Below, in pieces: positions 1 to 35,705 of a stretch of 62,689 nt of DNA (positions within the stretch are counted from its first letter, which is position 1; each line of letters opens with the position of its first letter). The stretch comes from a virus (taxonomy: Duplodnaviria; Caudoviricetes). The stretch is from positions 1-62,689 of IMG/VR virus record IMGVR_UViG_3300009506_000027. One strand, given 5' to 3'. The translations under genes and the position numbers were made by a program. Under the pieces are notes generated by a model that had not been told where the DNA came from, made no database searches, and saw only the letters and a list, made by a program, of their open reading frames with translations.

Positions 1-917
1 TTGCCCTTCACGATATCCACCGGCCCCTTCCCGTCCCCCGCTTCCGGCTCCCGGTACACGAGCCCCACGACCGCCCCGCCAGTCTGCGGGAGCACCACCT
101 TTGATTGGTCGTAAGCACCCCCGAACCTGAAACAGCAGGTTTCCCCGTACTCACCCAGACGGAGGAACGAAGACGGAGCGCACGAGAACACCACCCGCCA
201 CCGATGCCGGAAAGACGACCAACGCTGACCCATGGCCTCGCAGAAGAGAGCCCCGGCCCGCTGGAGATTCGCCCCATCCTCCCCCACCAAACGCTTCCCC
301 AACTTCCCCAAGGCCCGGAGGAACACCCTGGACGGCTTTCCACCTTCCTCGCACCGGAACACCACAGCATCCCGCGCCCCGTCCATGACTTCAGAATAGG
401 CGAGCAAATCCTGAAACTCCCCCTTGAGCCTATCCCGCCCCAACTCCCCAGACGCCGGAATTTCTACCCGGAAATAGTCGGGCCCCGAATCCATGAACCC
501 CACATCACCCCCCGCTTCCATGGTCCTGCGCCTGAACACCTCGAAAGACGGCTGAACCTCCACGAGCCCGAAATGGTGCGCCTTGATATGCTGGGGCTGA
601 AACACCCGAACGCTTCCCACCCCTTGGACCCCCGCCGCCATGCACGAGTCCGTCCATTCCCTGGAGACATCCCCGGCAGACACCGACCCTTCAACGGCCC
701 CGACCCACGACCAACGCCAACCGCCCCCGAACAACCCACGGAGCCTTGCCGTACGGTCCCAGATGGAAGCCACCCACCCGTATAGATCCCCCCGGAACAA
801 CGCGCCACCCTTTTCCAACACAGCCTCGCACCGTGCCACTTCCTTTCCGACTTCCTCTTCCTTGGATCCCGGAGCATACACCCAGGAGGAACCGGAACAA
901 CCTTCAGTCTCACACAT
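1..917 (-). CDS. Hypothetical phage protein, >305 aa, running off the window edge (absent from the ORF track)
   Basis: Manual translation from ATG 917 gives MCETEGCSGSSWVY...VVFSCAPSSFLRLGEYGETCCFRFGGAY...DIVKG, open to position 1. GAAGGGG RBS and TGATG coupling with the upstream ORF. The 105..785 + ORF is its antisense shadow. Confidence 0.8.
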   Translation of the reverse strand, partial: MCETEGCSGSSWVYAPGSKEEEVGKEVARCEAVLEKGGALFRGDLYGWVASIWDRTARLRGLFGGGWRWSWVGAVEGSVSAGDVSREWTDSCMAAGVQGVGSVRVFQPQHIKAHHFGLVEVQPSFEVFRRRTMEAGGDVGFMDSGPDYFRVEIPASGELGRDRLKGEFQDLLAYSEVMDGARDAVVFRCEEGGKPSRVFLRALGKLGKRLVGEDGANLQRAGALFCEAMGQRWSSFRHRWRVVFSCAPSSFLRLGEYGETCCFRFGGAYDQSKVVLPQTGGAVVGLVYREPEAGDGKGPVDIVKG

Positions 918-991
918 CACTTTTCCCCTTCCATGATGAGGAACACGAGCACCACCAGGAACACGAGAAACCCCAGTCCAGCTTGAAGCAC
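917..991 (-). CDS. 24-aa hydrophobic peptide MLQAGLGFLVFLVVLVFLIMEGEK
   Basis: GTG overlaps the upstream TAG and TGA overlaps the downstream ATG; one TM-like stretch. Confidence 0.6.
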   Translation of the reverse strand: MLQAGLGFLVFLVVLVFLIMEGEK

Positions 992-1227
992 TAGACCCCC
1001 TTCCCCCTGGACGGACACCCCCGGCACCTCCCGCCGCACTTACAGACACCCGCCCGGATCCGGCCCCGAACCAATGGCCCCAGGAGATCCGGGCCCACCA
1101 AACGGGCCTGAGCCACTAGGTCTTCCTGGCACGGATCCGACCCGACCGAACCAAAAAGATCCAACTGCCCCAACGCCAACGCCCGGAGGAAGACCTCCCC
1201 ACCGTCCGAGCCTACCACCGGTTCCAC
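991..1227 (-). CDS. Hypothetical protein (78 aa, Cys-rich C-terminus)
   Basis: Fills the leftward operon and is coupled to its neighbours. Confidence 0.5.
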   Translation of the reverse strand: MEPVVGSDGGEVFLRALALGQLDLFGSVGSDPCQEDLVAQARLVGPDLLGPLVRGRIRAGVCKCGGRCRGCPSRGKGV

Positions 1228-1580
1228 CCCCGCCCCGTATCACTTCCCCCCCCCACGCCCCCGGCCCTGGACCGCCACGGAGCCCCCTTCCCGTCGATTG
1301 CCCGTCCCGTCCCTTCCCACCGTGCCACCGTGCCCACCTCAGAGAGCATGAGCCCCAAGACCTCCCCCAGCGACCACGACCCCCGGAGCCCGTACCCATT
1401 GCCGCCCCACTTGCCCTTGATGGACTGGACCGACCGGCACCGCACCGGCACCAGATACCGCAGAGCCCGCTTGACCCTCTTCCGCAGAGCCCGCCGCCGC
1501 ACACTGGCCCGCACCACGTCACCGAACGACCACAAGAACACCAGCACCAGCACCGAAACACCCAGCACCTGAACCAACAT
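1212..1580 (-). CDS. Hypothetical membrane-anchored protein
   Basis: ATG 1580 after AGGGGG; N-terminal hydrophobic segment followed by a basic stretch. Confidence 0.55.
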   Translation of the reverse strand: MLVQVLGVSVLVLVFLWSFGDVVRASVRRRALRKRVKRALRYLVPVRCRSVQSIKGKWGGNGYGLRGSWSLGEVLGLMLSEVGTVARWEGTGRAIDGKGAPWRSRAGGVGGGSDTGRGWNRW

Positions 1581-2076
1581 GGAACCCCCTAGCTGAAACG
1601 TGAAAGAACCCCGCAACCTCCCCACCCACTAGCCGGAACTTGCCCCGGCCCTCGCACGTTACAGTCTGAAGGAGCGACCCACCAAACTGTCAACTGTAAG
1701 ACTTTCGTAAACTGGGGGCGCTGAGGCGTACTCTGGATGGGACAGTCGGAAGAATCCCACATACTGACCCCCGAACCCATAGCACCCCCGAAATATCCAG
1801 AATCCAGAAAAATGGAATGGACCGGATCGACCCCCACTTGCAAAATGCCACACTAGCCAAACCCGCAGACCCGGCACCGGACCGGGCCCCTGGGGTTTCT
1901 GGGGTCCTGGAGGCGGAACGGGTACCCCCTCACATATTTGGCGCAGTTGTTATAGCGGCCTCGAAAAAAGGGGGTGGCTCATTTCAGCCATTTTTAGGCT
2001 CGCCTAAATCTACCGTGCAAATTCATGCACGGTTTATGTCATAAAGGGCTTTCTTTTTTCAGGTGCCGCGACAGCC

Positions 2077-3761: not shown

Positions 3762-4281
3762 GGCTCAGCCCGAGGGGGAGCCGGTGGCGGAACGTCCCAT
3801 TGGCTACATCACGCCCTTGGATATGGCGCGGGTTTCGTCCATGGAGCCGAGCGTACCTTCCGTGAACATCTGGGCTGAACCCGATGATGGCGACCTCCCC
3901 CTCTACCTCCATCCCAAGCCGAGCCGGGAGCAAGGGGAGATGTGTGGGCCGCATGGAGTGTGTGAGTTCGCTGTTGTGGGTGCCGCGAACCACCCGCAAG
4001 CGTCTTTGGGCGATCTGGCACTCGACCGGGATGATGCACCCAAGGGTTCGGTAGTTGAGTATCAGATCAAATGTCAGGTCTGCCACCGAGACGGATTTCT
4101 TTTGCTCAATCAAGCACCACCGAGCCGGGAGCGGGAGGCGGCCCTAAGCATTGTCGCCCAAGCGATCATGGCGGCTTACACGAGTCACCACTTGCCCGAC
4201 GAGTTCAAGTCACTCGGAAAACGCGCCAGCGAAGCACTAGCCATCCTCGCCGGGAAGGAGGCCGACGATGGCAAAGAATGA
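3742..4281 (+). CDS. Hypothetical mosaic protein
   Basis: Probable ATG at 3742; PLYLHP motif and a CxxC. Confidence 0.65.
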   Translation: MEEKRSKAQPEGEPVAERPIGYITPLDMARVSSMEPSVPSVNIWAEPDDGDLPLYLHPKPSREQGEMCGPHGVCEFAVVGAANHPQASLGDLALDRDDAPKGSVVEYQIKCQVCHRDGFLLLNQAPPSREREAALSIVAQAIMAAYTSHHLPDEFKSLGKRASEALAILAGKEADDGKE

Positions 4282-9237: not shown

Positions 9238-9610
9238 AGATTGGATGGTCGCCTGGGCCGTCTGGTGGCTGGTGTTCCTGGCTGACCTGTTTTTCTGGCA
9301 CCACGTCTGGTTCACCCGAGGCATCCTGATTGCCTTCCTGGTGCTGGAGGTTTGGGGGGCGGCGTTCAGGAAGCGGGGCGGCGATACCCTGAGCGAGTTC
9401 CAGCAGTGGATTTCGGCCCACGCCGGGGAGGACGCGAGGTGGTGGCAGTCGTGGAACGCACTCGTGACCGGCCTCGCCCTACTGGTGTCAGTGCAGGCCG
9501 GGTACGTAGTCATGGATCTCTGGGGCCGTTGGGACCTGTCGGTCATCGCCATCCTGACTGTGTTCCTGTGGAATCTTTTCCACTGGACGGAAAGCGAAAG
9601 GTACGGTTAG
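9221..9610 (+). CDS. Multi-pass membrane protein
   Basis: About four Trp-rich hydrophobic segments; AGGAGG RBS. Confidence 0.7.
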   Translation: MGKMSKDWMVAWAVWWLVFLADLFFWHHVWFTRGILIAFLVLEVWGAAFRKRGGDTLSEFQQWISAHAGEDARWWQSWNALVTGLALLVSVQAGYVVMDLWGRWDLSVIAILTVFLWNLFHWTESERYG

Positions 9611-9957
9611 TGAGGCCCTGGATCGGAGTTGACCTCGACGGAACGCTGGCCGTCTACGACAAGTGGGAGGGGCCGACCATCATCGGCCCCCCTGTCCCCA
9701 GGATGGTGGAGCGGGTGTTGGCGTGGCGGGAGGAGGGGTGGCAGGTGAAGATTTTCACTGCCCGTGTGGCTGACGCGAAGGAGCGCCACGAGGCCCACCC
9801 CGCCATCGAAGCCTGGTGTAGGGAACACCTGGGGGAAGTTCTGCCCATCACCTGCGAGAAGGACATGGGGATGGTGGAGCTTTGGGACGACCGCTGCGTG
9901 CAGGTGCGGAAGAACACTGGCGAACCCATAGGGAGGAGCACTCGTGGCCTTAGTTGA
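9610..9957 (+). CDS. HAD-superfamily phosphatase (PNKP phosphatase-like)
   Basis: IGVDLDGTLA (DxDGT), IFTAR and LWDDR motifs; GTG overlaps the upstream TAG. Confidence 0.85.
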   Translation: MRPWIGVDLDGTLAVYDKWEGPTIIGPPVPRMVERVLAWREEGWQVKIFTARVADAKERHEAHPAIEAWCREHLGEVLPITCEKDMGMVELWDDRCVQVRKNTGEPIGRSTRGLS

Positions 9958-10318
9958 TGAGCAGTGGGGTGAAAGACTCCTAGACGTAGCTAGGGATATT
10001 ATGAAGGTCGTTGTATCCACGAGCAAGAATGTGGACGCCCTGGCGGCGCGGGTCAGTAATCTGGAGGAGCGGACCCTGCCGCCAGCCGACCGCTGGGGGG
10101 ACGAAGACGAGAAGGAGGCGTCCGGTGTCCTCGTCCCCATCGAGGAACTAACCGAAGCGTTGGCCGTCCTCGACCGAGCCCGTGCCTGTATCATCGCCAC
10201 GGCTGAGATCCCGATGCGCCTGGAGACAGTGCGCTTCCCCAAGACACTGAAGGCGATTGATCGCCTCTTTCATAAGGTGGGGTACGATGGAGCGGGTGCG
10301 CATCAAGAAGTGGGGTAA
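9944..10318 (+). CDS. Hypothetical protein
   Basis: GGAGGAG RBS; coiled-coil-like segment. Confidence 0.7.
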   Translation: MALVDEQWGERLLDVARDIMKVVVSTSKNVDALAARVSNLEERTLPPADRWGDEDEKEASGVLVPIEELTEALAVLDRARACIIATAEIPMRLETVRFPKTLKAIDRLFHKVGYDGAGAHQEVG

Positions 10319-10481
10319 AGACCACTACGAGGATCCACAGAAGCCGGGGTTCACGCTCTGTGGGTTTATGGTCCCATGGAAGCGCCGGGAGCCGCAGTAC
10401 AAAAAGCTCTGCGTGGAGTGCCGCAAGGTCTACCAGATGCGTTTCGAGGACCTGGTGAAGGAAATGCAGCATACCCCTTGA
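10287..10481 (+). CDS. Small putative Zn-binding protein
   Basis: H...TLCG...CVEC pattern; ATG 10287. Confidence 0.6.
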   Translation: MERVRIKKWGKDHYEDPQKPGFTLCGFMVPWKRREPQYKKLCVECRKVYQMRFEDLVKEMQHTP

Positions 10482-10505
10482 CACCACATTACAGGACGTT
10501 ATCTT
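10478..10505 (+). promoter_or_regulatory. Sigma70-type promoter of the large ncRNA
   Basis: TTGACA-16 bp-TATCTT directly upstream of the structured region. Confidence 0.65.
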
Positions 10506-10509
10506 CCAG

Positions 10510-11360
10510 GTCGCTGATTGAAAACTGGAATACAGGCCGCATGGGGTCTGTGAGGATATGCCGGGGCGACCCGGCGAAAGGGGATCGGTTTCCTGCGACC
10601 CCCCGCCTACGGGTCCAGCCATGTAAGCTCGCGCTGGTTGGCGTGGACACTTCCACGACTGACGCTTCCGCGAACCGGGAGATAAGCCCGAAGGAGGACC
10701 ACCCCGAGCAGTGGGCAACGCTGGCTGCGAAGGGTGGGGGAACGAGGGCCGACAGTGAACGAGTAGCGTGAGAGTTTGAGTCCCGATCAAGGACGAAGGC
10801 GATTACGAAGAACCGCACGGGCAAGGGTTGGGACACCCGATGGTCGTGTGGCCCGAGGAGTAGCGGCGACGTGAAACTCAGAGGGAGAGTGGCATTGACT
10901 GACTCAAAAGGTCAGGCACCCACCGGACGGGCTCTTTCTCGCAGGTTAACCAAGTGTGATTAGCTCAGTGGTAAGAGCAAAGCGGCGATAACGCTTAGGT
11001 CGCGGGTTCGACCCCCGCATCATACACCAAAAACGGAAAGACCCGTCCGGCACTGGAGACAAAAGTGGCTTAATCCCACGCCCTCCGGGGAACGTGGGGT
11101 GGGACAGACTCCCAAGGTCAGTCCTACTTGGTCGGAAGACGGAGGTAGCTCCTTAGCGGGAGCCCGCAGGCCGCAAGCCTGGCCCGAGTGTGAAGACCGA
11201 GTACATCCGGTGCGACAAGCCTAACGCCTGGCTTTCAAAACGGCAGTCATGGCCCATACCAGCCTCGCTGGTGGACAACGCGGGAACCCTACGGGTGGAG
11301 CCGGGGGATAATCCGACAAAAGGGGGACCAGAAAACGCCCATAGTCTCAGGGCGTTTTTT
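10510..11360 (+). ncRNA. GOLLD-like giant structured RNA with an embedded tRNA
   Basis: ~850 nt with no credible ORF; dense hairpins with GCGA and UACG tetraloops; 5' GTCGCTG pairs with CGGCGAC (10864-10870); GOLLD-like words GAGTAGC, GCTTAATCCC and TCAAAA; terminal hairpin AAAACGCCC-ATAGTCTCA-GGGCGTTTT. Confidence 0.75.
10954..11029 (+). tRNA. tRNA-Ile(GAT) with atypical anticodon loop (G32, C33)
   Basis: Acceptor GTGTGAT/ATCATAC, D stem GCTC/GAGC, anticodon stem AAGCG/CGCTT with loop GCGATAA, T arm GCGGG-TTCGACC-CCCGC, encoded ACCA; 76 nt. Confidence 0.85.
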
Positions 11361-11424
11361 CATATCTATACCTTGTGTTTCGGGCCGTCACTGGCTATTC
11401 TGTTCTGTGAAGGGAGGTAATATC

Positions 11425-11637
11425 GTGACAGCAATTCCACCGGAAGGCTACAAGAAGTATCCCTGGGCCCTCGGCCCGATGAAGCTGCCCTGCGACTTCT
11501 TTTTCGAGGGTGACGACGCGGACAGAGCGGCGAGTGCCGCCAGGGTATGGGCGTCACGTAACAAGCATCACGGGATCCGCGTGGCGACCAGGAAAGAGCC
11601 TGGCGGCGTGCGAATCTACTTCCAGCAGGAGAACTAG
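11425..11637 (+). CDS. Small basic protein, possibly DNA-binding
   Basis: GGAGGT RBS before GTG; YPW...GGVRIY pattern. Confidence 0.65.
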   Translation: MTAIPPEGYKKYPWALGPMKLPCDFFFEGDDADRAASAARVWASRNKHHGIRVATRKEPGGVRIYFQQEN

Positions 11638-11638
11638 C

Positions 11639-11860
11639 ATGGCGAGGCAGAAGCTCTTTGAGTACGCAGCCATCTTCCACCCAAGGGCCACCAAAGCCCA
11701 GAAGGACGCCGGGGAGGACCCGAAGTCCGAAATCATCATCTTCCCCGAGGTCGTTCTCGCCTACGACGAACGTGAAGTGGCGATGCGCGTCGCCAAGCAA
11801 CTCCCCGACTCCTACATGGACAAACTGTCTCAGGTCGAAATCATCATCCGGGGTTTTTAG
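11639..11860 (+). CDS. 73-aa phage protein ending on a slippery heptamer
   Basis: MARQKLFEYAAIFHP...QVEIIIRGF; G GGT TTT immediately before TAG. Confidence 0.75.
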   Translation: MARQKLFEYAAIFHPRATKAQKDAGEDPKSEIIIFPEVVLAYDEREVAMRVAKQLPDSYMDKLSQVEIIIRGF

Positions 11861-12087
11861 CCGGTCCTCCCCGCCAGGAGCAGCCCGAAAGCGAGGCTGC
11901 GGGGCAGGACGTCACGTTGGTTCCTGGGTGGCGGTCCGAACCCGTGTGGTGGGCCGAGCAGCCTGGATACAACACAAACGGATTCGTTGACAACGCCCAC
12001 ACAATCTCCGACAATGCTGGAGGCGTGCTTTACACCTACACAGCAACCGACGCCTCTTCGTATATGGCCTCAGAGGTGGTCCCGTAA
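11851..12087 (+). CDS. -1 frameshift extension of the 11639 gene (~76 aa)
   Basis: The -1 frame is open from the slippery site to TAA at 12085-12087, which overlaps the next ATG; GC-rich hairpin just downstream of the heptamer. Confidence 0.65.
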   Translation, partial: GFLAGPPRQEQPESEAAGQDVTLVPGWRSEPVWWAEQPGYNTNGFVDNAHTISDNAGGVLYTYTATDASSYMASEVVP

Positions 12088-12488
12088 TGGAACATCCCCG
12101 ACGACTGCCGATCCCCCACCGAGGGGGAATGTTGTCGGGGAAGAATTACACCAAGCCGACGTCGTGGTCTGCCGCGTTGCGGAGGGACTTGAAATACATC
12201 CTTGAATGGATGATGGCGCTACGGGTGGAGGGTGCCGACAGCCTTCTCAAGCTCGTGCCCAAGGTCGATAGCGCGATCGTCGGCTTCAGGGTTGGGAGCA
12301 AGGCACTAAGGATGATGGCCGGAATAGACTGCCGCTGCGACGCCCTCCCCCATAAGCCCTACTGCACGATCTGGAAACGCTTGAAATTTGGCGAACACTT
12401 CTGGTCAGAGTACGGGATGACGCCGAGCACGGATGAGCCGCCAGTCGGCTATGGTGAGGATGTGATCCAATTTCCGAAGGTGGTTTGA
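12087..12488 (+). CDS. Hypothetical protein
   Basis: ORF with CxC...HxxxC; GAGGTG RBS. Confidence 0.65.
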   Translation: MEHPRRLPIPHRGGMLSGKNYTKPTSWSAALRRDLKYILEWMMALRVEGADSLLKLVPKVDSAIVGFRVGSKALRMMAGIDCRCDALPHKPYCTIWKRLKFGEHFWSEYGMTPSTDEPPVGYGEDVIQFPKVV

Positions 12489-27369: not shown

Positions 27370-27789
27370 ATGGCGGTAGACTATAATCCGGGGACCAACC
27401 CCTTCGACCCCCAGGACGATTTTCCGTCCACAGCCACCGGGGTCGTGCTTCCTGGTGGGGTAGACGCCGTGGAGGCCGACTACTCCTACATCGGAAGTGT
27501 GGACTTCAAAACAATCATCAACGAGTCGTGGGGTGGGAAGGAAAAAAGGACGGCCCAGGTCCCGGCGAGGCTTCGTTTCAAGATCATCTACGACCAGCTT
27601 ACGCCGACCGACGCCAACACTCTCTGGAACCATTACCTGGCGCAGGAGGGCCAGCTTTACGCCTTCAGCTATTTCGAGTATCTGAGCGAGGAGGAGTTCT
27701 CCGTCCGGTACAATATGCCGTCCATGGACAGGGAAACCTTCCTCTATGAGGCCGAGAAAACCGGCATCGAACTCATCCAGGTGTTGTAA
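27370..27789 (+). CDS. Distal tail protein
   Basis: After the tape measure; GKEKR...GQLYAF pattern. Confidence 0.65.
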   Translation: MAVDYNPGTNPFDPQDDFPSTATGVVLPGGVDAVEADYSYIGSVDFKTIINESWGGKEKRTAQVPARLRFKIIYDQLTPTDANTLWNHYLAQEGQLYAFSYFEYLSEEEFSVRYNMPSMDRETFLYEAEKTGIELIQVL

Positions 27790-30700
27790 TGCGAAGCCTC
27801 AGTAGCGCGATCCAGGCCATTCTCGCTGCGGACCAGCAGCGTCCGGTCACGACCGTCAAGATCACCTTGCGTGACGTGGGGGCGACGGAGATTTACGCGG
27901 CGACCCATGAGGTCACAATCTCCTCCCAGCCCTACACGGGAGATATGCTTGGGCTCCCCAGGATCGTGGTGAGCGAGGAATCCGGGATTGACCATATCGT
28001 TGTCCAACTCGCCAACGCAGACTGGTCGTACTCCTCATACCACAACCAGAACGACTTCGACGGCGCGACCGCAGAGGTCAACCAGTATTTTGCCACGGAC
28101 GCCGGATACACCACGTTTGAGGGTCCGGTCCTACTCTTTTCGGGTACGATCTTCCGGCCCGAGGTCAATGCTCAGGTATTGACGCTCAACGTTATGGCCG
28201 ATGCCCGGATGGCAAGGGGCGGGAGCCTCGGGCGCACGATCACAAACCACTGCGGGTGGTTGTTCGGGAGCACGGACTCCAACTGCGGCTACACCTACTC
28301 CGCGCAGGTGGCCTCCGGTGGATCCTACAATGTCGGTGACTGGGTGCCCCTTTCCGGATCGCCCGCTACGGACCAGGATGGTGTGGCGCTGACCGCCGAC
28401 ACCATGGCGAACGTACCAGCGAACTACATCAAGATCATGCGCGGAAGTCCAACGGGCACAGAGATTTACACGAATCTCTACATCGCGTCGTCCGATCTGG
28501 ATAACTCGCAGATCAAGTTGGGCTACAATTTGGAGGATGGCCCGCTTCCCCCTTGGTCGCTCTCTGCCGGGGACTATATCGTCTACGTTGGTTGCCCACG
28601 CGACACAATCCGCGAGTGTGCGCGGCGTTGGCAGTTCGGGTCAGCGACCCGCCAGCAGGATAAGTTCGGCGGCTTCGACTACAACCGAGACAAGATCCTC
28701 CCCTACGCCAACCCGAAGCAGGGTGTGGTGGCGCAGATGAGCGGGGTGATGGGGGAGATCGTCCCCATCCCCTACGGATCCCGGTGGACGACCCCCATGA
28801 TCCTCGGCCTCCACCACCGCGCACATGGAGGGAACGGGGCCTGGGCTGCGTGGAACTCCACCAGGGACGGCCCGTTCGTGGTCTGCATCATCGGTGAGGG
28901 CCCCCTGGATACTGGCATTGAAACGATTGAGGACGACATCATGCTGGACGGTGCGCTGATCCGCGCCACCCAGTATTACGTCAACCAGGACTGGGAGGAT
29001 AAGTTCGATGTGCAGACGGGGACCACCACACAGGCCCCCTCGGACTTCTTCCCCATGTGGGACACCGACCACAACCTGCCTGGGTTCTCCGCTCTCAGGA
29101 ACATCGGCTATTTCATCCAGGAGCTTCCCGAGAGCTACGACGTCCAGCCCCACATGACCAACGAGTTGTGGGATCACTTCAATCCACCGATCGGCAGCAC
29201 GGATTGGGGATCCCTGAAGCCAGCGTCCTCCTACTTCACCCGCACGCGGTATTGGTCGGTCGCCACCCCCGACATACAATGCAAATACAAGGGGAAGAAG
29301 GTTCAGAAGTACGTGTACTCCGGTGGCGTACCCACGACCGATGCTTACGAATACTCCCGCAACCCCGTCTGGCAGATCCTCGACGTCCTGACGGCGAGCT
29401 ACCGCACGGACGACAGCGATCAGTGGTCGGCTGGCCTTGCTACCAGTGAAGTAGACCTCGGCTCCTTTATCGACTGGGCCGACTACTGCGAGGAGCAGAT
29501 TGACGTCTACGACTACGACGGTAGCAGCATCACGGTTGACCGTTATGTGTCGGACTTCTACGTCAAGTCCAGCAAGAGGGGCGAGGTCCTGGAAGCCCTC
29601 CTCCTCGCCTGCCGTGGTGCCCTGGTGGCGCGGGACGGCAAGGTGGGGATCGTGCTGGACGCGCCGCTCGGCGGTACGGGCACCGTAACGGGCGCTACAA
29701 GCACTTCGATCACCGAAAGCACCCGTGACGGCCTGACGGACGCCTCGTGGCCCACAGGGGGCGTCAGCGGCCTTCTGACGGGCCGGTACCTGAAGATGCT
29801 TACTGGTGCTGCGGCTGGTGATGTTCGCACCATCACCTCCAACACCGGGACGACGATCAATGTCTCCGCGTCTTTCAGCACAACGCCCAGCCCCGGTGAC
29901 ACCTACGCCGTCTACGCCGTCGAACTGAATACGGACAACGTGGGTCCGATCCGGGTGGGACACAAGAAGCCCCTCTACGAACTCACGAATCAGGTGATCG
30001 CCAGCTACGAGTCCACCAAGGACCAGGGCAGGCAGGCCACCATCCCGATTCCAGACACCTACGAGGACGACCAGGGCGACTACCACTTCGACAAGTTCGG
30101 CCTGAACGAACGGAAGATTCAGATGGACGCCACGACGGAGTGGCAGCAGGCCGTTCGGAACGGATGGTATGAGCTTCGGAGGGAACTGGATCAGAACTTT
30201 GAGTTCATCATCGAAGGTCTGAATATCGAAGGGCTGGCGGTGGAGGTGGGGGACGTGGCCCTCATCAACCACGACATTAGCGGGATCACCAACGAAACGG
30301 TTCGGGTTACGAGGGTCGAGGACAACGGCAACGCCACCTACTCCCTGGTCTGCGAGCTTTTCCGGGACCATGTCTACCTGGATTTCCCCACCGACGATTT
30401 CGATTCGGTGGACATTTCCTCCAACCTGATCCCGCCCCACGGCGTTCCTTCCCATGTGACCGGCGTGACCATTGACCACTACGTCGAAATGGACAACGAG
30501 GCTCCTTGGGTCGTGGTAGAATGGGAGCAGCCTGGCTGGCCGTATCGCAACTGGTCTGTCGTGATTGAGTCCCGTTTCCAGAACCCGCTGACGGAGGTGT
30601 GGGGAGACTGGGAGGAGATCGGCACATCCATCACGACGAAGTTCACCTTCCGCTCCGCTCGCCTCGGCATGATTGAGGTACGTCCCACCTTGATGAGCGC

Positions 30701-33700
30701 GGTGGGCGTGAAGGCGAACGACCCCCTGGAGAACGGGACCTCCTCGGGCGGGAACACCTCTACCACGTTGAACGACACTACTCGTGCCTGGGACATCAAC
30801 GCCTGGGACGGGTGCTATGTGAGGATCACGAGCGGGACCGGGGACGCCAACGACCCGAAGGAGATCGTCAGCAACACAGCAACAGAACTGACGATCAACG
30901 GCACCTACCCGTGGAGCCCCACCCCTGACGGAACATCCGTTTACGAAATCTACGTGCCCTCGCCCGAGGTACAGGAACAGATCACCGCTGGGATTGGTTA
31001 CGGCTTCCCCTTCCTGGACGAAGACGATGGCGACCTTTTCCTGCATCCAGGATGGCAGCTTGGCCTTGCCTGCAAGTACCTGGACTCTGACACCGCTCCT
31101 ACGCTGAACGACGTAATCACGACAGGAACGATCCTCACGGCTGATGGAGCACCAGAGGACGGCACAAACGTCCACACGTTCACCACAGACGGGGAGATCC
31201 GGTACGTCGGTATCGTTTACTACCTGGACGAAGCCTGCACCCAGGGCGAGAGCGGCCTGACTGTCCTCCGGTATACCTACCACGAGGCAGACAACAACCC
31301 CAAGGTGGTGTGGTTCCCCTACATCCCGGACACTGTTGGATACGAGGGCGCACGGTTCGTCGCTACCGACGACAGCAGCCAGGTCAACTTCGGGTACGAC
31401 ATTATCACCGAGGGCGACCCGGATCCGACGTGGCCTGGCGACTACACCATGTCCGGGTTGGTTGCCGACCCCTATGTGGAGGACATTGAGGTACCCAAGC
31501 CCGCCGAGGGCGCGACCCGCAAGGTAATCCTGTTCAACTGCGTGGATGCTGACGGCAGAACCTTCCGGCCAACGGACGATCCTGGGCGCGTTTACATTGA
31601 CGGGAACTCGCGGCCCAGCGGCTACTGCACCTACGACATTGAGCCTGATTATACGCCCGTCATTACACCGCAGGCGATTGAAACGGATACGCAGTCCTGG
31701 CGCTTCCGGGTAAAGAAGACGAACATCGGCTCCGAAGCGTGGGACGCGATCTCCTGGGACGATCTGACCACCGGGGAATACTCGGGGAACACTTTCGAGC
31801 CCCAGTACATGACCTCCTACGTCCTCACCGAGACTGAATGTCTCAACGTGGAGGTCGTCTTCTTGAGAACGTCGGCAACGGACGACACCACCCAGTCGCT
31901 CTCCATGAAATCCGAGGCGATGCGGTTCACGGTCTACCCGTTCTTCGACACAGTTGTACCAACCGTACAAGCGTACCCAGGACAGGTCGGCTCCGTGGGG
32001 AACCTCTACCTGGTCATCAACGACCCCAAGGGGTTCACGGTCGAGACTGCGTTCAAGGCGGTAGAGGATTGGGACGGCGAGGACTTTGACGACCCGACCG
32101 ATGGAAGCTGGAACCGCGACACCATCGTACCCTACAACCTGACCGAGACAGTCAACCTGGGCGAGGACCACAACAGCCTGATCGCCTGGGCGGTGGGGTA
32201 TGACCTTGGCGACGGGAACGGCACCGTTTACATCCAGGGCTCCAACATCTTCGACCTCGACAAGATCCCGGTCGTGTTCGGTGCCCTGCACGTCAATGCT
32301 AATGGTGACGTCTACCTGTCCGCGAACGGCAGGGAGGACCTGAAGTCCATCCAGTATCTCACCTCCACCACCTCCATGCCTGGGGACGTGTCCGGTGGTA
32401 CGGTGGTGAATGGGCGGTCCACCAACACCCTGGTCTACTCTGGCCTCACGGATGGCTCTACGCTGTATATCCGTGTGCGTGGCTACAACCTCGTGGGTGG
32501 GGCTGTCGGTGGTGGTGATGAGTCAACCGAAGACTGGCTGGGCCAGGTCACGAATATGCACTCATCCCAGATTCCTGGGGTGAAGGTATACAAGTCGCAG
32601 AGCGGTTCTACCGGCACGCTGAACATCCTGGTGGACGACCCGGACGGGGTGCAGGTGGCGAGTTCGTTCCAGGACCAGTCTGGCGGCGGGGATTTCAGCC
32701 TTTCGTCCGACCCGACGACATGGTCCGGGTACGACAACTCCTCGCCCTATGACACCAGCGACACCGTGACCCTGGTGGACAAGCACACCAGCTTCATCGC
32801 CTGGGCCGTTGGGTACGACCTTGGTGGCGGGACTGAGTGGATCACCGGCACGGAAACATTTGATATTGATGAGAACCCGTCCGGGACCGGGACCGCTGTT
32901 GTGTACTCCAACGGCAACGCCTCCTGCGACCTGTTCGGTGATGAAGACACGGCGTCGTGGAAGGTGGCGGCATCCGTGACCTCCTTCCCCACCGCGACAA
33001 CGGTGAGGGCGCAGACCGCCGACGATGGGCAGAGCCTCACCGCGTCGGACATTGGCACGCTGGTATCGGCATCAAACGGTGACACCATCTACTACTCGGC
33101 CTTCCCGTACTCCTCCACCGGAGGCGGCGGGACCGAGGGTGCGATGGTGAATTTCATCGGGAACTACTTCGACACCGACACGCTGCCGACCGATCCGGTT
33201 GCCCCGAAGGCGTTCGTGGTACCCAGCGTATCGGGCTCCACCGGCACCTTGGATCTGACGGTGCGGGACGAATACCTGTCCGTTACGGCTATCGAAAAGC
33301 GAACGAAGCAGGGCAGCGGCGCGTGGAGTTCGTGGAGCAGCCTGACCGGGGGCACGGGGACCATCGGTGTAGACGAAGACCTCACACGCTCACAGACCGT
33401 CACGATTGAGGAGAAACACAACTCTGAAATCGGTATCAGGATCGCCTGGACCGATGAACTCAGCGCCACGCGGTACACCTACTTCAGCCAGACCTATGAC
33501 CTGAACGTCATCCCCTCCGTGGTTTGCGGACTTTCCCTGACGCTGTCGAAGGTGTACCTCGCGTGGATCGGTGACGATGACCTGGCCTCCATCACCTACA
33601 AGACGTCCACCTCTGCCATGCCCGTGGACGTATCTGGCGGGACGACGGTGGACGGGCGCACGGGGGACGAGCAAGACCTCGGCACCCTGAACCGTGGCGA

Positions 33701-35705
33701 AATCATGTACGTCCGGGTGCGCGGCTACTCTGCCGTTAGCGGTGGGGGCACGGCGTCTGCTGAAGACTGGACGGGGATGATCCGGCGCGACTTCACGCTC
33801 ATCCCGACCGTGCAGGTGGTGGCGTCGCAGTCCGGTACCACCGGGACGGTAACTTTGAATATCGAGGACCCGGATTCAAAGATGAACGCCACATCTTTTG
33901 AAACCGGGATTTCTCCAGACGCCAATCCAGCCAACTGGTCCGGGTACGATAACTCCGATCCCTATGGCACCACCCAGAACATCACGATTGAGGAAAAGCA
34001 CCCCACGGTGATCCACTGGGGGGTCCGCTACGACCTCGGCCTCGGTGATGGGAACGTCTGGATTACGGGCTCCCATACCTTCGACATTGACACGATCCCG
34101 AGTGTCACGGCAGAGCTTCAGCAGGTGGGGAACTATCTCTACCTGTCGTGGAACGGCGACGAAGACGTCGGCTCCATCAAGTACCTGGGGAGCACCGGGA
34201 GTATGCCTACCGAGGCAAACCTCGACGCATCAGGTACTTATAACAATAACAGGGCGGGCCGCATCACGCTCTACACGGGTACGTTCTACGAGGGTAAGGA
34301 GTATTACGTTCGCCTGCGGGCCTACTCCGGTGCGAGCGGGGCCGGGGACCAGTCGGCGGAAGACGTTCAGGTTTCTGCGGCGCACTCCATTTCCGGCCCA
34401 CCTCTGGTCAAGGTCATCGCCACCCAGAGCGGCACCACGGGGACGCTGACCATCACCGTGGACGACCCGCTCCTGCGGGTGAACGCCACCGCTTTCGAGC
34501 CCATCGCTGGGGGCGGGGCCTTCAGCCCGAACTCGGACCCAGCAAGCTGGAGCAACTACGACAACTCCTCGCCATATACCTACTCGGACACGGTAGACAT
34601 TAATCCGAAGCACGGGAGCGTGATCTGGTGGGGGGTCAGGTGGGGGCCGACCAACGACTCGACCTACAAGTGGATTACGGGATCCCACACCTTCGACGCT
34701 GACCTCCAGGCAGAGATCAACTCCATGTCCCTGGATGTGGACGAGAACGGATACGCGGACGTGTCCGTCATCGGTGACGAAGACTGCGACAATATTTACG
34801 TGCGCGTGGGGGTCGGGTCGGCACCGACAGACCCCACGAATGGATCCTATCACGGCACCTTCTCCGGCAACAACGGGGTCGCCACAACTTCTGTGGCGGT
34901 GTCTGCTGGCGATCAAATCTACATCAAGGCCAGGGGCTACAACGGGTCTGACCCAGGGCCAGTGAAGCAACTGGTTGTTAAGTGGGTGGCTACTCCCATC
35001 GTGTCAGTCGAAGTCACTTTTGACGATGACGGGTACGCGATCGTTTCTGCCACGGCTGGCGACGACGCGACCTACATCTACTACAACGCGGACATTGGCT
35101 CTGACCCAGGAACCCCCACGAGTTCGGTCTATGACGGCTCAATCTCCGGTAGCTCTGGGAGCCACACCAGCACCACGATCCAGGCCGACATGGGTGAGGA
35201 GGTCTGGGTCAACATTCGGGCCTACGCTGGTACGGTCGCTGGCCCCGTGTTCGGGATCATCAAGGCCCGTCGCGGCGTGGGGACGGTATCGAAGACGCAG
35301 TATTTCCAGGCTACTGGGATCATCGGGCAAAGCTCGGGTGTGGTGGAGACTGACGGCTACCTCGCCGCCACAAGCACATCCTCTACGGAGGTGAAGGGCG
35401 GCATCACGATCCCGCAGGGCGTAGTGATTACCGACTTCGGTGCCAGGTTGTACCGGGGAGGAGCCTCGGACGCCGCCAGCGCCTCCCTCCTGGCCGGTCC
35501 CTATGGTGCGCTTTGGTATGTGATTGCCGCCGCCACCGCCACCGGAACCGGGTGGACAACGCCGTATGACACCGCCAACTATACTGTGACCTCTGCGGCG
35601 ATTTCATTGAAGCTAGTGTTTGACGCGAACACCAGTGGCGACGATGTAAGGTGTGACTACATCTGGATCACCTACGACGCATCGGACGTGGACAAGACCC
35701 TCTAG
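27789..35705 (+). CDS. Giant tail-tip protein (hub plus gpJ-like central fibre plus repeated Ig/FN3-like modules), 2638 aa
   Basis: CGWLFG...C...CPR...C...FGGF hub motif, VPIPYG, GEGP, SRNPVW, VEVGDV; five internal ~200-aa repeats. Confidence 0.85.
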   Translation: MRSLSSAIQAILAADQQRPVTTVKITLRDVGATEIYAATHEVTISSQPYTGDMLGLPRIVVSEESGIDHIVVQLANADWSYSSYHNQNDFDGATAEVNQYFATDAGYTTFEGPVLLFSGTIFRPEVNAQVLTLNVMADARMARGGSLGRTITNHCGWLFGSTDSNCGYTYSAQVASGGSYNVGDWVPLSGSPATDQDGVALTADTMANVPANYIKIMRGSPTGTEIYTNLYIASSDLDNSQIKLGYNLEDGPLPPWSLSAGDYIVYVGCPRDTIRECARRWQFGSATRQQDKFGGFDYNRDKILPYANPKQGVVAQMSGVMGEIVPIPYGSRWTTPMILGLHHRAHGGNGAWAAWNSTRDGPFVVCIIGEGPLDTGIETIEDDIMLDGALIRATQYYVNQDWEDKFDVQTGTTTQAPSDFFPMWDTDHNLPGFSALRNIGYFIQELPESYDVQPHMTNELWDHFNPPIGSTDWGSLKPASSYFTRTRYWSVATPDIQCKYKGKKVQKYVYSGGVPTTDAYEYSRNPVWQILDVLTASYRTDDSDQWSAGLATSEVDLGSFIDWADYCEEQIDVYDYDGSSITVDRYVSDFYVKSSKRGEVLEALLLACRGALVARDGKVGIVLDAPLGGTGTVTGATSTSITESTRDGLTDASWPTGGVSGLLTGRYLKMLTGAAAGDVRTITSNTGTTINVSASFSTTPSPGDTYAVYAVELNTDNVGPIRVGHKKPLYELTNQVIASYESTKDQGRQATIPIPDTYEDDQGDYHFDKFGLNERKIQMDATTEWQQAVRNGWYELRRELDQNFEFIIEGLNIEGLAVEVGDVALINHDISGITNETVRVTRVEDNGNATYSLVCELFRDHVYLDFPTDDFDSVDISSNLIPPHGVPSHVTGVTIDHYVEMDNEAPWVVVEWEQPGWPYRNWSVVIESRFQNPLTEVWGDWEEIGTSITTKFTFRSARLGMIEVRPTLMSAVGVKANDPLENGTSSGGNTSTTLNDTTRAWDINAWDGCYVRITSGTGDANDPKEIVSNTATELTINGTYPWSPTPDGTSVYEIYVPSPEVQEQITAGIGYGFPFLDEDDGDLFLHPGWQLGLACKYLDSDTAPTLNDVITTGTILTADGAPEDGTNVHTFTTDGEIRYVGIVYYLDEACTQGESGLTVLRYTYHEADNNPKVVWFPYIPDTVGYEGARFVATDDSSQVNFGYDIITEGDPDPTWPGDYTMSGLVADPYVEDIEVPKPAEGATRKVILFNCVDADGRTFRPTDDPGRVYIDGNSRPSGYCTYDIEPDYTPVITPQAIETDTQSWRFRVKKTNIGSEAWDAISWDDLTTGEYSGNTFEPQYMTSYVLTETECLNVEVVFLRTSATDDTTQSLSMKSEAMRFTVYPFFDTVVPTVQAYPGQVGSVGNLYLVINDPKGFTVETAFKAVEDWDGEDFDDPTDGSWNRDTIVPYNLTETVNLGEDHNSLIAWAVGYDLGDGNGTVYIQGSNIFDLDKIPVVFGALHVNANGDVYLSANGREDLKSIQYLTSTTSMPGDVSGGTVVNGRSTNTLVYSGLTDGSTLYIRVRGYNLVGGAVGGGDESTEDWLGQVTNMHSSQIPGVKVYKSQSGSTGTLNILVDDPDGVQVASSFQDQSGGGDFSLSSDPTTWSGYDNSSPYDTSDTVTLVDKHTSFIAWAVGYDLGGGTEWITGTETFDIDENPSGTGTAVVYSNGNASCDLFGDEDTASWKVAASVTSFPTATTVRAQTADDGQSLTASDIGTLVSASNGDTIYYSAFPYSSTGGGGTEGAMVNFIGNYFDTDTLPTDPVAPKAFVVPSVSGSTGTLDLTVRDEYLSVTAIEKRTKQGSGAWSSWSSLTGGTGTIGVDEDLTRSQTVTIEEKHNSEIGIRIAWTDELSATRYTYFSQTYDLNVIPSVVCGLSLTLSKVYLAWIGDDDLASITYKTSTSAMPVDVSGGTTVDGRTGDEQDLGTLNRGEIMYVRVRGYSAVSGGGTASAEDWTGMIRRDFTLIPTVQVVASQSGTTGTVTLNIEDPDSKMNATSFETGISPDANPANWSGYDNSDPYGTTQNITIEEKHPTVIHWGVRYDLGLGDGNVWITGSHTFDIDTIPSVTAELQQVGNYLYLSWNGDEDVGSIKYLGSTGSMPTEANLDASGTYNNNRAGRITLYTGTFYEGKEYYVRLRAYSGASGAGDQSAEDVQVSAAHSISGPPLVKVIATQSGTTGTLTITVDDPLLRVNATAFEPIAGGGAFSPNSDPASWSNYDNSSPYTYSDTVDINPKHGSVIWWGVRWGPTNDSTYKWITGSHTFDADLQAEINSMSLDVDENGYADVSVIGDEDCDNIYVRVGVGSAPTDPTNGSYHGTFSGNNGVATTSVAVSAGDQIYIKARGYNGSDPGPVKQLVVKWVATPIVSVEVTFDDDGYAIVSATAGDDATYIYYNADIGSDPGTPTSSVYDGSISGSSGSHTSTTIQADMGEEVWVNIRAYAGTVAGPVFGIIKARRGVGTVSKTQYFQATGIIGQSSGVVETDGYLAATSTSSTEVKGGITIPQGVVITDFGARLYRGGASDAASASLLAGPYGALWYVIAAATATGTGWTTPYDTANYTVTSAAISLKLVFDANTSGDDVRCDYIWITYDASDVDKTL

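What the first reader, a model, noticed from the sequence alone, without database searches (positions are those of the whole stretch)
10478..11360. GOLLD-like giant ncRNA with its own promoter and a nested tRNA
Seen: a promoter, ~850 nt of dense structure, a 5' domain closed by 10510-10516/10864-10870, and a 3' terminal hairpin with a TAGTCTCA loop. A full tRNA is clamped by a long helix, CCGGACGGG-C-TCTTTC (10923-10938) / GAAAGA-CCCGTCCGG (11036-11050). Established: GOLLD RNAs are phage-associated, of unknown function, can carry tRNAs in a variable region and form multimeric cages. The GOLLD assignment rests on motifs recalled from memory. This would be a high-GC variant, useful for covariation analysis.
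Basis: partly seen in the sequence, partly recalled or inferred. Interest (0 to 1): 0.85.

Follow-up and report, generated by a model that had tools for sequence, protein, structure and literature searches.

The report
Phage GOLLD RNA carrying a tRNA
This is a real copy of GOLLD, a known giant cage-forming phage RNA, with an isoleucine tRNA gene embedded in it; it is a new example of a known kind, not a new class.

Summary
Window 10510-11360 (+) is a GOLLD RNA gene. The Rfam GOLLD model (RF02032) matches 10880-11355 end to end (146.6 bits, E 1e-40). That is 3.4 bits under the curated cut-off, so a standard Rfam scan misses it. A tRNA-Ile(GAU) with encoded CCA (10954-11029) sits in the GOLLD variable linker, as in 8 of 26 other viral GOLLD loci I collected.

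Its 9-bp part (10923-31/11042-50) is a conserved, covarying GOLLD helix. Its 6-bp extension is no better than chance across 29 GOLLDs and competes with a supported stem.

The upstream 370 nt is a shortened GOLLD 5' domain. A profile and a covariance model built only from other GOLLDs each find it, and nothing else in the window scores significantly.

A sigma70-like promoter ends 5 nt before the RNA. The last GOLLD hairpin plus a U-run looks like an intrinsic terminator.

The host genome is a complete 62.7-kb temperate tailed phage from sediment. Its two nearest relatives lack the RNA, so it is a gain/loss cassette.

High-GC GOLLDs and tRNA-bearing GOLLDs are already published. Verdict: interpretation supported; new member of a known kind; moderate-low interest.

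The parts
10478..10505 (+). Sigma70-like promoter: -35 TTGACA (10478-83), 16-nt spacer, -10 TATCTT (10500-05). The -35 box overlaps the stop codon of the upstream ORF.
   Evidence: 10 of 12 matches; 1 site found against 0.3 expected. The homology to other GOLLD 5' ends starts at 10510, which is where a transcript from this promoter should start. Consensus match only; no start mapped.
10510..10879 (+). GOLLD 5' domain, about 370 nt. This is about 60-90 nt shorter than in the five nearest relatives.
   Evidence: A profile of 5 other GOLLD 5' domains (window excluded) gives a single hit in the whole window, 10510-10694, E 1.5e-5. Isolated fold z = -2.57; reverse strand z = +0.33. Relatives measure 433-464 nt from the equivalent start.
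10510..10516 (+). 5' strand of the helix proposed to close the 5' domain (GUCGCUG); partner is 10864-10870 (CGGCGAC).
   Evidence: Present in the MFE and centroid of the isolated domain, not in the full-length MFE. By my reading of the sequences printed, L057 can form 5 bp in the same register with different letters and L055 cannot. Inconclusive.
10559..10576 (+). GNRA-type hairpin UGCCGGG-GCGA-CCCGGCG, in the conserved first third of the 5' domain.
   Evidence: Alignment A1 columns 61-67/72-78: 7 pairs, all with compensatory changes among 6 sequences.
10623..10768 (+). Central multi-branch subdomain of the 5' domain, with one long arm deleted relative to relatives. Closing helix 10627-36 with 10753-57 plus 10760-64.
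   Evidence: Covariance model R1, built from 5 other GOLLDs only, scores 29.7 bits, E 2.7e-7, model positions 1-187. The next hit in the window has E 0.58. The same helices appear in the MFE.
10864..10870 (+). 3' strand of the proposed 5'-domain closing helix.
10880..11355 (+). GOLLD conserved 3' domain (the part Rfam RF02032 models).
   Evidence: 146.6 bits, E 1e-40 to 1e-42, full model. All 29 invariant columns of the 29-sequence alignment A2 are present.
10880..10941 (+). First stem-loop of the 3' domain. Outer stem 10880-88/10933-41; loop UCAAAAG at 10904-10910.
   Evidence: Helix 1: 9 pairs, 7 with changes on both sides, 82.4% of cells paired.
10923..10931 (+). 5' strand (CCGGACGGG) of the linker-closing helix; partner 11042-11050 (CCCGUCCGG). 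It crosses the outer stem, so it is absent from Rfam's nested consensus.
   Evidence: helix 2: 9 pairs, 8 with changes on both sides, 77.8% paired. For the two helices together the covariation score is 0.552 against 0.183 +/- 0.019 in shuffles (0 of 500 reach it); slid controls are <= 0.206.
10942..11041 (+). Variable linker of GOLLD, here filled by a tRNA gene and short flanks.
   Evidence: The tRNA falls in the insert of the Rfam alignment. Linkers of other GOLLDs sit at the same columns.
10954..11029 (+). tRNA-Ile, anticodon GAU, with genomically encoded CCA (11027-29). It is the only tRNA in the 62.7-kb genome.
   Evidence: (60.7 bits). AUC plus AUU make up 512 of 533 Ile codons in 17 large ORFs.
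11036..11041 (+). Not supported as a family feature.
   Evidence: 47.7% paired against 48.3% in shuffles; covariation 0.098 against 0.102. It competes with the supported outer stem.
11042..11050 (+). 3' strand of the linker-closing helix.
11050..11057 (+). Strand just after the linker that pairs with 11206-11213 (8 bp). Rfam marks this as a pseudoknot. I infer it is the J13/15-L20 contact that the cryo-EM paper shows is made between neighbouring RNA copies.
   Evidence: a duplex of 6 or more bp is possible in 28 of 29 GOLLDs with very different letters; the window's is -14.7 kcal/mol. The mapping to bridge B7 of PMC12286853 is my inference.
11206..11213 (+). Partner strand of the pseudoknot/kissing contact.
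11332..11360 (+). Last GOLLD hairpin: stem AAAACGCCC/GGGCGUUUU, loop AUAGUCUCA, then a U-run. It probably doubles as an intrinsic terminator.
   Evidence: The terminator scan does not list it because its loop limit is 8 nt and this loop has 9. Several relatives (L053, L057, L064) also have T-rich tails after this hairpin.
10287..10481 (+). Upstream flanking ORF (64 aa, no family match), left border of the cassette.
   Evidence: A 57%-identical homologue lies in relative L002 at 4017-4175, followed directly by the homologue of window 11639-11860. GC3 is 0.80, as in real genes.
11425..11637 (+). Downstream flanking ORF (70 aa, no family match).
   Evidence: A 54%-identical homologue lies in relative L003 and is absent from L002. 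No PHROG or Pfam match.

Best explanation
Window 10510-11360 (+) is a stand-alone gene for a GOLLD RNA of about 850 nt, carried by a complete 62.7-kb temperate tailed phage.

Shown here:
- a full-length covariance-model match of the 3' domain;
- retention of all family-invariant nucleotides and of the covarying helices;
- a homologous but shortened 5' domain;
- a canonical tRNA-Ile(GAU) with encoded CCA in the variable linker;
- strand-specific excess folding energy;
- a promoter-like site and a terminator-like last hairpin that bracket the RNA exactly;
- absence of the whole element from the two closest phage relatives.

Inferred from solved GOLLD structures (PMC12286853; PMC12990946):
- The transcript folds into separate 5' and 3' domains and assembles with copies of itself into a closed, dihedrally symmetric cage of roughly 10-14 copies.
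- The 8-bp pairing 11050-57/11206-13 would serve as a contact between neighbouring copies.
- The linker, and so the tRNA, would point into the lumen.

Most likely function (about 25-30%; the family's function is unknown): the cage is a store or shield for the covalently attached tRNA precursor. It would keep the precursor away from processing enzymes or host tRNA-cutting defences until it is released during lytic growth. The tRNA would then read AUC and AUU, which are 96% of the Ile codons in the phage's large genes.
For: -: RF02032 match, 146.6 bits, E 1.1e-40, model 1-416 of 416; no ROOL match at E <= 10. reproduces the score.
- the window carries all 29 columns that are invariant in 29 GOLLD 3' domains, including GUGGA, AUAAUC and the UA.UCUCA loop.
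- the outer stem and the linker-closing helix covary (score 0.552 against 0.183 in shuffles, 0 of 500; slid controls <= 0.206).
- the kissing/pseudoknot pairing is possible at 6 or more bp in 28 of 29 GOLLDs, and at 8 bp in the window.
- models built without the window find its 5' domain and nothing else there scores significantly (E 1.5e-5; 29.7 bits, E 2.7e-7).
- z = -5.06 on the + strand against -0.72 on the - strand.
- the tRNA.
- a tRNA sits at the same linker position in 9 of 27 loci (window included; 24 distinct sequences).
- the promoter.
- terminase, major head, tail, DnaB and integrase genes; the record is rated 100% complete.
- relatives with 76-78% identical terminase have 0 of 2 GOLLD matches, and in L002 the genes flanking the cassette are adjacent.
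- ORFs overlapping the RNA have GC3 of 0.55-0.70, against 0.75-0.80 in real genes.
- contigs >= 99% identical from two further sediment samples of one study cover 10599-11328 and 10661-11322. Two of them bridge the tRNA with both flanks, so the element exists unchanged outside the source sample.
Against: - The score is 3.4 bits under Rfam's gathering cut-off.
- The 5' domain is about 60-90 nt shorter than in the nearest relatives. In a sequence-based alignment only 47 of 81 consensus pairs hold in the window; the second half aligns only with a covariance model and a large deletion.
- No close relative of this particular RNA was found in viral, genome or metagenome collections with my patterns, so there is no covariation evidence specific to this variant.
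- No direct evidence of transcription, ends, tRNA release or assembly. The libraries that hold it are labelled metatranscriptomic, but the tool rates them 'probably DNA'.
- The host is unknown, so the sigma70-type promoter reading may not apply.
- The storage or shield function is conjecture. In one Mycobacterium the internal tRNA is a pseudo-tRNA with no detectable expression (PMC6582537, passages).
Confidence: 0.9

Rival explanations
1. A decaying GOLLD relic. The useful gene is the tRNA-Ile, and the surrounding GOLLD sequence is a non-functional remnant that merely supplies a promoter and terminator.
For: The score is below Rfam's cut-off. The 5' domain is shortened and has lost a long arm. 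The element is absent from the two nearest phages.
Against: All 29 invariant columns and the long-range pairings are intact. Folding energy is strongly strand-specific over the full length. Of the 26 other full-length GOLLD matches, 4 also fall below the cut-off, so a sub-threshold score is normal for divergent members. Published GOLLDs also differ in which 5' arms they have and still assemble (PMC12990946, passages).
Confidence: 0.05
2. A new RNA class that only resembles GOLLD, since it fails the curated Rfam threshold.
For: 146.6 bits against a cut-off of 150. The 5' domain shows only weak sequence similarity to other GOLLDs (best pairwise E 2e-6).
Against: The match is end to end with E 1e-40. 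The tRNA insert is scored as a long insertion in the model's variable region, and I infer that this depresses the score. The invariant motifs, helix positions and linker position are the same as in 28 other GOLLDs.
Confidence: 0.02
3. Protein-coding DNA. One of the overlapping ORFs is the real gene: 10376-10771 (+) 131 aa, 10191-10790 (-) 199 aa, 10489-10836 (-) 115 aa, or 11190-11420 (+) 76 aa.
For: Open frames of 76-199 aa exist.
Against: Their codon-position GC is flat (GC3 0.55-0.70, GC2 0.49-0.58), unlike real genes here (GC3 0.75-0.80, GC2 0.32-0.48). The one ORF tested, 10376-10771, has no Pfam match. Long spurious frames are expected at 60% GC. The RNA models explain the whole interval. 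I did not run large-database protein searches on these ORFs.
Confidence: 0.01

Closest known systems
GOLLD RNA (Rfam RF02032; env-38 GOLLD 14-mer, S. agalactiae GOLLD 12-mer cryo-EM structures)
   Same: Full-length model match of the 3' domain, the invariant motifs, the covarying stems, the pairing between the post-linker strand and a distal loop, a variable linker at the same place, a separate and less conserved 5' domain of about 400 nt, and phage carriage.
   Different: It scores 3.4 bits under Rfam's cut-off. Its 5' domain is 370 nt with one long arm missing; env-38 has 420 nt (PMC12286853), and the whole S. agalactiae RNA is 700 nt (PMC12990946). GC is 59%. No assembly data exist for this copy.
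Mycobacterium / Mycolicibacterium GOLLD in horizontally acquired tRNA clusters
   Same: High-GC setting; a tRNA or pseudo-tRNA inside the GOLLD linker (PMC6582537 and PMC12990946, passages read; Morgado 2020 seen only as a citation because the paper is not held).
   Different: Those copies sit inside arrays of 30 or more tRNA genes on bacterial chromosomes. This one is in a phage whose only tRNA is the embedded one. Here the tRNA looks fully canonical (60.7 bits, encoded CCA).
tRNA-bearing GOLLDs in IMG/VR contigs (L053, L057, L059, L064, L066, L068, L069, L070)
   Same: The tRNA is at the same linker position and is flanked by the same closing helix. L053, L066 and L069 also have no other tRNA within 1.5 kb.
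   Different: The tRNA identities differ (Gln, Ser, Gln, Cys, Lys, Ser, Gly, Lys). The nearest 3' domain (L068/L080) reaches only nhmmer E of about 1e-25 and lies in a tRNA island at 43-49% GC.
ROOL RNA
   Same: A large phage-associated RNA that also forms cages and is often near tRNAs (PMC12286853).
   Different: No ROOL match at E <= 10. It is an unrelated fold.

Membership tests
GOLLD RNA (RF02032) | Significant end-to-end match to the family covariance model | tested here: met
   146.6 bits, E 1.1e-40, model 1-416 of 416, at 10880-11355 (+).
GOLLD RNA (RF02032) | Reaches Rfam's curated gathering score (an operational cut-off, not a biological feature) | tested here: not met
   146.6 against 150 bits. 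Of 26 other full-length GOLLD matches in viral contigs, 4 also score below it (137-149.7 bits).
GOLLD RNA (RF02032) | Family-invariant nucleotides, including GUGGA.AA...GGGAA, AUAAUCC and the last loop UA.UCUCA | tested here: met
   All 29 invariant columns of the 29-sequence alignment A2 are present in the window.
GOLLD RNA (RF02032) | First 3'-domain stem-loop plus the helix that closes the variable linker, both supported by covariation | tested here: met
   18 pairs, 80% of cells paired, 15 pairs with double changes, covariation 0.552 against 0.183 in shuffles (0 of 500).
GOLLD RNA (RF02032) | Long-range pairing of the strand after the linker with a distal loop (Rfam pseudoknot; an intermolecular bridge in the cryo-EM structure) | tested here: met
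   8 bp, 11050-57/11206-13. A duplex of 6 or more bp is possible in 28 of 29 GOLLDs with different letters.
GOLLD RNA (RF02032) | Variable linker at a fixed position that may hold a tRNA | tested here: met
   tRNA-Ile at 10954-11029 lies in the model's insert region. The same position holds a tRNA in 8 of 26 other loci.
GOLLD RNA (RF02032) | A separate, less conserved 5' domain of about 400 nt directly upstream | tested here: met
   370 nt. Profile hit 10510-10694, E 1.5e-5. Covariance-model hit 10623-10768, E 2.7e-7, with one arm deleted. The last roughly 110 nt (10769-10879) are not matched to relatives.
GOLLD RNA (RF02032) | Carried by a phage or prophage, often near tRNA genes | tested here: met
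   Terminase, head, tail, DnaB and integrase genes. The record is a virus rated 100% complete. There is no tRNA array; the embedded tRNA is the only one.
GOLLD RNA (RF02032) | Self-assembly into a closed homo-oligomeric cage | not testable with these tools
   Needs an in vitro transcript with mass photometry or cryo-EM.
GOLLD RNA (RF02032) | Expressed as a long RNA, rising during phage lytic growth | not testable with these tools
   Only assembled contigs of public runs were available, and they cannot show transcription or ends.
ROOL RNA | Match to the Rfam ROOL model | tested here: not met
   No ROOL match among the 8 matches listed at E <= 10 for 10300-11500.
tRNA (RF00005) | Cloverleaf match above the curated cut-off with a readable anticodon | tested here: met
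   60.7 bits against 29. ARAGORN calls Ile, anticodon GAT. A 7-bp acceptor stem and encoded CCA are seen in the sequence.

The most novel reading that the evidence does not exclude
This is a naturally minimal GOLLD unit: a compact RNA with one 5'-domain arm missing, bracketed by its own promoter and terminator. It has been gained or lost as a cassette of about 0.95-1.15 kb between closely related temperate phages, and it carries the phage's only tRNA inside the predicted cage lumen. If the missing arm changes the copy number of the cage, and if the cage controls release or protection of the tRNA-Ile, this small system would show that the core job of GOLLD is tRNA cargo handling rather than anything tied to large tRNA arrays.
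Probability: 0.15. Interest if true: 0.6.

Novelty: new member of a known kind. Interest (0 to 1): 0.3.

Why it matters
The function of GOLLD is still unknown even though cage structures have been solved. This copy adds three things:

1. An example that standard Rfam annotation misses, because it scores just under the cut-off.
2. A clean presence/absence comparison with sister phages. It delimits the functional unit as promoter, 5' domain, 3' domain with one tRNA, and terminator.
3. A natural variant with a shortened 5' domain, which could be used to test how the arms set cage stoichiometry.

It does not open a new class. High-GC and tRNA-bearing GOLLDs are already in print.

Tried and rejected
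1. Default Rfam scan of the whole window: only the tRNA passes. GOLLD appears only in E-value mode.
2. search_dna_similar of 10400-11420 against cultured phages: only the tRNA part matches, in 4 records at 78-84%.
3. Searches for close relatives of this particular RNA:
- the subfamily 3' pattern in viral contigs gave 4 stretches, three already held and a fourth (L044) that is not a close relative;
- in genome contigs it gave 9 MAG contigs (6 Saprospiraceae, Lewinella, Verrucomicrobiota, Opitutia), none close;
- a tighter pattern in metagenome contigs gave 1 contig, L080, which closely resembles L068;
- the 5'-end motif in viral contigs gave only L057's contig.
As a result there is no covariation set specific to this variant.
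4. The sequence-based alignment of six 5' domains (A1) mis-aligns the window's second half. Only 47 of 81 consensus pairs hold, and the 4-bp consensus version of the closing helix is broken or gapped in 1-2 of 6 sequences per pair. I replaced this with a covariance model for the central subdomain.
6. Public runs: contigs of X2 and X3 lie only within 10599-11328, and no contig covers the flanking genes in 9500-12400. It is tempting to read this as a transcript. However, these are low-depth contigs of one study, the tool rates the libraries 'probably DNA', and missing cover proves nothing, so I do not count it as evidence of expression or of ends. X4 and X5 (mangrove RNA-seq) give only short 90-96% pieces of relatives.
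7. Host: the terminase and major head protein reach at most 27.6% and 25.1% identity to cultured phages. The host is left open.
8. Neighbouring small ORFs: no PHROG or Pfam family, except a weak polynucleotide-kinase-like hit for 9352-9957.
Morgado 2020 (PMC7549688) is not held. Weinberg 2009 was not looked up. Supplementary alignments of PMC12286853 could not be seen and may already contain near relatives.
Full report
**What is there.** The interval between the ORF ending at 10481 and the ORF starting at 11425 is 943 bp with no convincing gene.
- The four ORFs of 76-199 aa that overlap it have flat codon-position GC: GC3 0.55-0.70 and GC2 0.49-0.58.
- TerL, the major head protein, DnaB and the two flanking small ORFs have GC3 0.75-0.80 and GC2 0.32-0.48.
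- ARAGORN and Rfam find one tRNA in the whole window: tRNA-Ile(GAU) at 10954-11029, 60.7 bits, with CCA encoded.

- At Rfam's gathering thresholds only the tRNA is reported.
- In E-value mode on 10300-11500, the GOLLD model RF02032 matches 10880-11355 (+) over all 416 positions: 146.6 bits, E 1.1e-40, against a gathering score of 150. No ROOL match appears at E <= 10 (same score).
- The tRNA lies in the model's variable insert.
- A sub-threshold score is not unusual. I collected GOLLDs from IMG/VR with a conserved pattern, which gave 41 stretches. Of these, 26 of 40 searched records have a full-length GOLLD match. 22 score above the cut-off and 4 below, at 137-149.7 bits (L044 could not be searched there).

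**3' domain anatomy against 28 other GOLLDs (alignment A2).**
- The window carries all 29 invariant columns, including GUGGA, GGGAA-type and AUAAUC motifs and the UA.UCUCA of the last loop.
- The outer stem of the first stem-loop (10880-88/10933-41) and a second helix, 10923-31/11042-50, covary strongly. 80% of cells are paired and 15 of 18 pairs show changes on both sides. The covariation score is 0.552 against 0.183 +/- 0.019 in 500 shuffles (none reach it) and <= 0.206 when partners are slid by 1-3 columns.
- The second helix closes the variable linker. It crosses the first stem, which is why Rfam's nested consensus omits it.
- The other half, UCUUUC 10933-38 with GAAAGA 11036-41, pairs in 47.7% of cells against 48.3% in shuffles (covariation 0.098 against 0.102). 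It would also displace the supported outer stem.
- In this one sequence the thermodynamic MFE does choose the long clamp. A local alternative pairing therefore cannot be excluded, but it is not a family feature.
- The strand just after the linker (11050-57) pairs with 11206-13 (8 bp). A duplex of 6 or more bp is possible in 28 of 29 GOLLDs with quite different letters.
- I infer this is the L20-J13/15 contact that Kretsch et al. describe as found by covariation and shown by cryo-EM to bridge neighbouring chains (PMC12286853, passages read).

**Embedded tRNA.**
- A tRNA occupies the same linker position in 9 of 27 loci, window included (24 distinct sequences). The identities differ: Gln, Ser, Gln, Cys, Lys, Ser, Gly, Lys, Ile.
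- Within 1.5 kb of the other 26 GOLLDs, 15 have further tRNAs, 3 have only the embedded one, and 8 have none.
- In this phage the embedded tRNA is the only one.
- It reads AUC and AUU, which are 512 of 533 Ile codons in 17 large ORFs.

**5' domain.** Rfam does not model it, and published work describes it as less conserved (PMC12286853; PMC12990946).
- Folded alone, 10506-10885 gives -162.7 kcal/mol, z = -2.57. The reverse strand gives z = +0.33.
- The window's 5' domain resembles that of L057 (nhmmer E 2e-6), which groups with L055, L058, L065, L068 and L060. They share a 5' motif, UGAUUGAAAACUG...GGCCGC...GGGUC.GUGAG.AUA, and hairpins with compensatory changes.
- A profile built from the five relatives without the window gives exactly one hit in the 62.7-kb window on either strand: 10510-10694, E 1.5e-5. 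It starts 5 nt after the -10 box.
- The sequence-based alignment misplaces the second half, and only 47 of 81 consensus pairs hold in the window.
- A covariance model of the central multi-branch subdomain, again built without the window, hits 10623-10768 at 29.7 bits, E 2.7e-7. The outer 10-bp helix and an inner 4-bp helix are intact, and one long arm is deleted. The next best hit has E 0.58.
- The domain is 370 nt, against 433-464 nt from the equivalent start in the five relatives.
- Closing helix: by my reading of the sequences printed, L057 can form 5 bp in the same register with different letters, L065 4 of 7, and L055 none. In the alifold consensus, only 4 bp of the helix survive. I rate the closing helix inconclusive.
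- Positions 10769-10863 are not matched to relatives.

**Transcription signals.**
- TTGACA-16 nt-TATCTT at 10478-10505 is the only promoter-like site in 10000-11800 (10 of 12 matches; 0.3 expected).
- The last GOLLD hairpin (11332-58, 9-bp stem, 9-nt loop) runs into six U's ending at 11360. The terminator scan skips it only because its loop limit is 8 nt.
- Over the full 851 nt, z = -5.06 (0 of 20 shuffles as good), against -0.72 for the reverse strand.

**Genomic setting.**
- The window is an IMG/VR virus record rated 100% complete. It has terminase, major head, minor tail, DnaB-type helicase and integrase genes, so it is a temperate tailed phage.
- No cultured phage is close: at most 27.6% identity for terminase and 25.1% for the head protein. 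The host is unknown.
- The two nearest viral contigs (terminase 78% and 76% identical) have no GOLLD, in the 7 kb upstream of terminase or anywhere in their records (0 of 2).
- In L002 the homologue of the upstream ORF (4017-4175) is followed after about 44 nt by the homologue of window 11639-11860. GOLLD plus the 70-aa ORF 11425-11637 are therefore missing there.
- L003 has the 70-aa ORF. Its similarity to the window begins at about 11326, inside the stem of the last GOLLD hairpin, and continues through the U-run and leader.
- The RNA is thus a discrete cassette that has been gained or lost among sister phages.

**Other samples.**
- Contigs >= 99% identical occur in two further sediment samples of one study. 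They cover 10599-11328 and 10661-11322, and two of them bridge the tRNA and both flanks.
- Two mangrove RNA-seq runs hold short 90-96% pieces of related GOLLDs.
- Contigs cannot show transcription or ends, so I do not count this as expression evidence.

**Comparison with what is known.**
- GOLLD RNAs are phage or prophage RNAs of 700 to more than 800 nt, with a conserved 3' domain, a variable 5' domain and a disordered linker that points into a homo-oligomeric cage.
- Solved assemblies are a 14-mer for env-38, a 12-mer for S. agalactiae full length and a 10-mer for its 3' domain. Which 5' arms are present differs between the two full-length RNAs, as does the stoichiometry (PMC12286853 and PMC12990946, passages read).
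- tRNAs in the linker are noted in both papers.
- High-GC copies are described in Mycobacterium tRNA clusters, one with an internal pseudo-tRNA and low expression (PMC6582537, passages read). Morgado 2020 was seen only as a citation.
- The window's RNA meets every structural criterion I could test. The only failure is the operational Rfam cut-off.
- It is therefore a new member of a known kind. Its particular traits are 59% GC, a shortened 5' domain, a stand-alone cassette in a mid-sized temperate phage, and carrying that phage's only tRNA.

**Mechanism.**
- Shown: sequence and structure membership, the position of the tRNA, the bracketing signals, and the presence/absence polymorphism.
- Inferred: transcription from 10478-10505 to 11360; folding into two domains; self-assembly into a closed cage through contacts that include 11050-57/11206-13; the tRNA inside the lumen.
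- Conjectured (about 25-30%): the cage stores or shields the tRNA precursor until release in lytic growth.
- Other ideas in print, such as enclosing ribosomes or other cargo (PMC12286853), are not excluded.

Noticed in passing
window 11326-11425 vs L003 5190-5296: Similarity between the window and the GOLLD-less relative L003 starts inside the stem of the last GOLLD hairpin (GGACCA..AACGC.C ... GGGCGUUUUUU) and runs through the leader of the next ORF. L003 has an ordinary terminator there with a different loop. Either L003 keeps about 35 nt of a lost GOLLD, or the cassette recombined at the terminator.
   Followed up: partly
L077 514-932 and 1357-1780: A 2,039-bp contig of an Opitutia MAG (57% GC) holds two GOLLD 3' domains in tandem on the same strand (profile E 2e-21 and 2e-30).
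   Followed up: no
L071-L074, L076, L079: Saprospiraceae and Lewinella MAG contigs match only the last roughly 110 positions of my GOLLD 3'-domain profile (plus tRNA-like pieces; in L074 also a weak match to the first ~140 positions), although they carry the full terminal motif pattern. They may be divergent GOLLDs or GOLLDs with large inserts.
   Followed up: no
window 10896 onward, loose ends of run contigs X4 and X5: Mangrove RNA-seq contigs that match 10857-10896 continue with different letters that still form a hairpin around a (C)AAA(A)G-type loop. This suggests related GOLLD variants with compensatory changes in the first 3'-domain stem-loop.
   Followed up: no
window 27789-35705: A single 2,638-aa ORF on the + strand inside the structural module, very long for a 62.7-kb phage. 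Not examined.
   Followed up: no
window 1-2000: Strongly negative GC skew (-0.29 to -0.34) and higher GC (0.62-0.64) than the rest of the genome, with a 349-aa ORF on the - strand running off the end and no PHROG match.
   Followed up: no
window 9352-9957: A 201-aa ORF two genes upstream of the RNA has weak PHROG hits to polynucleotide kinase (E 2e-6) and phosphoheptose isomerase (E 6e-6) families and no Pfam hit. A kinase/phosphatase for RNA ends near a tRNA-bearing RNA could be relevant, but the match is weak.
   Followed up: no
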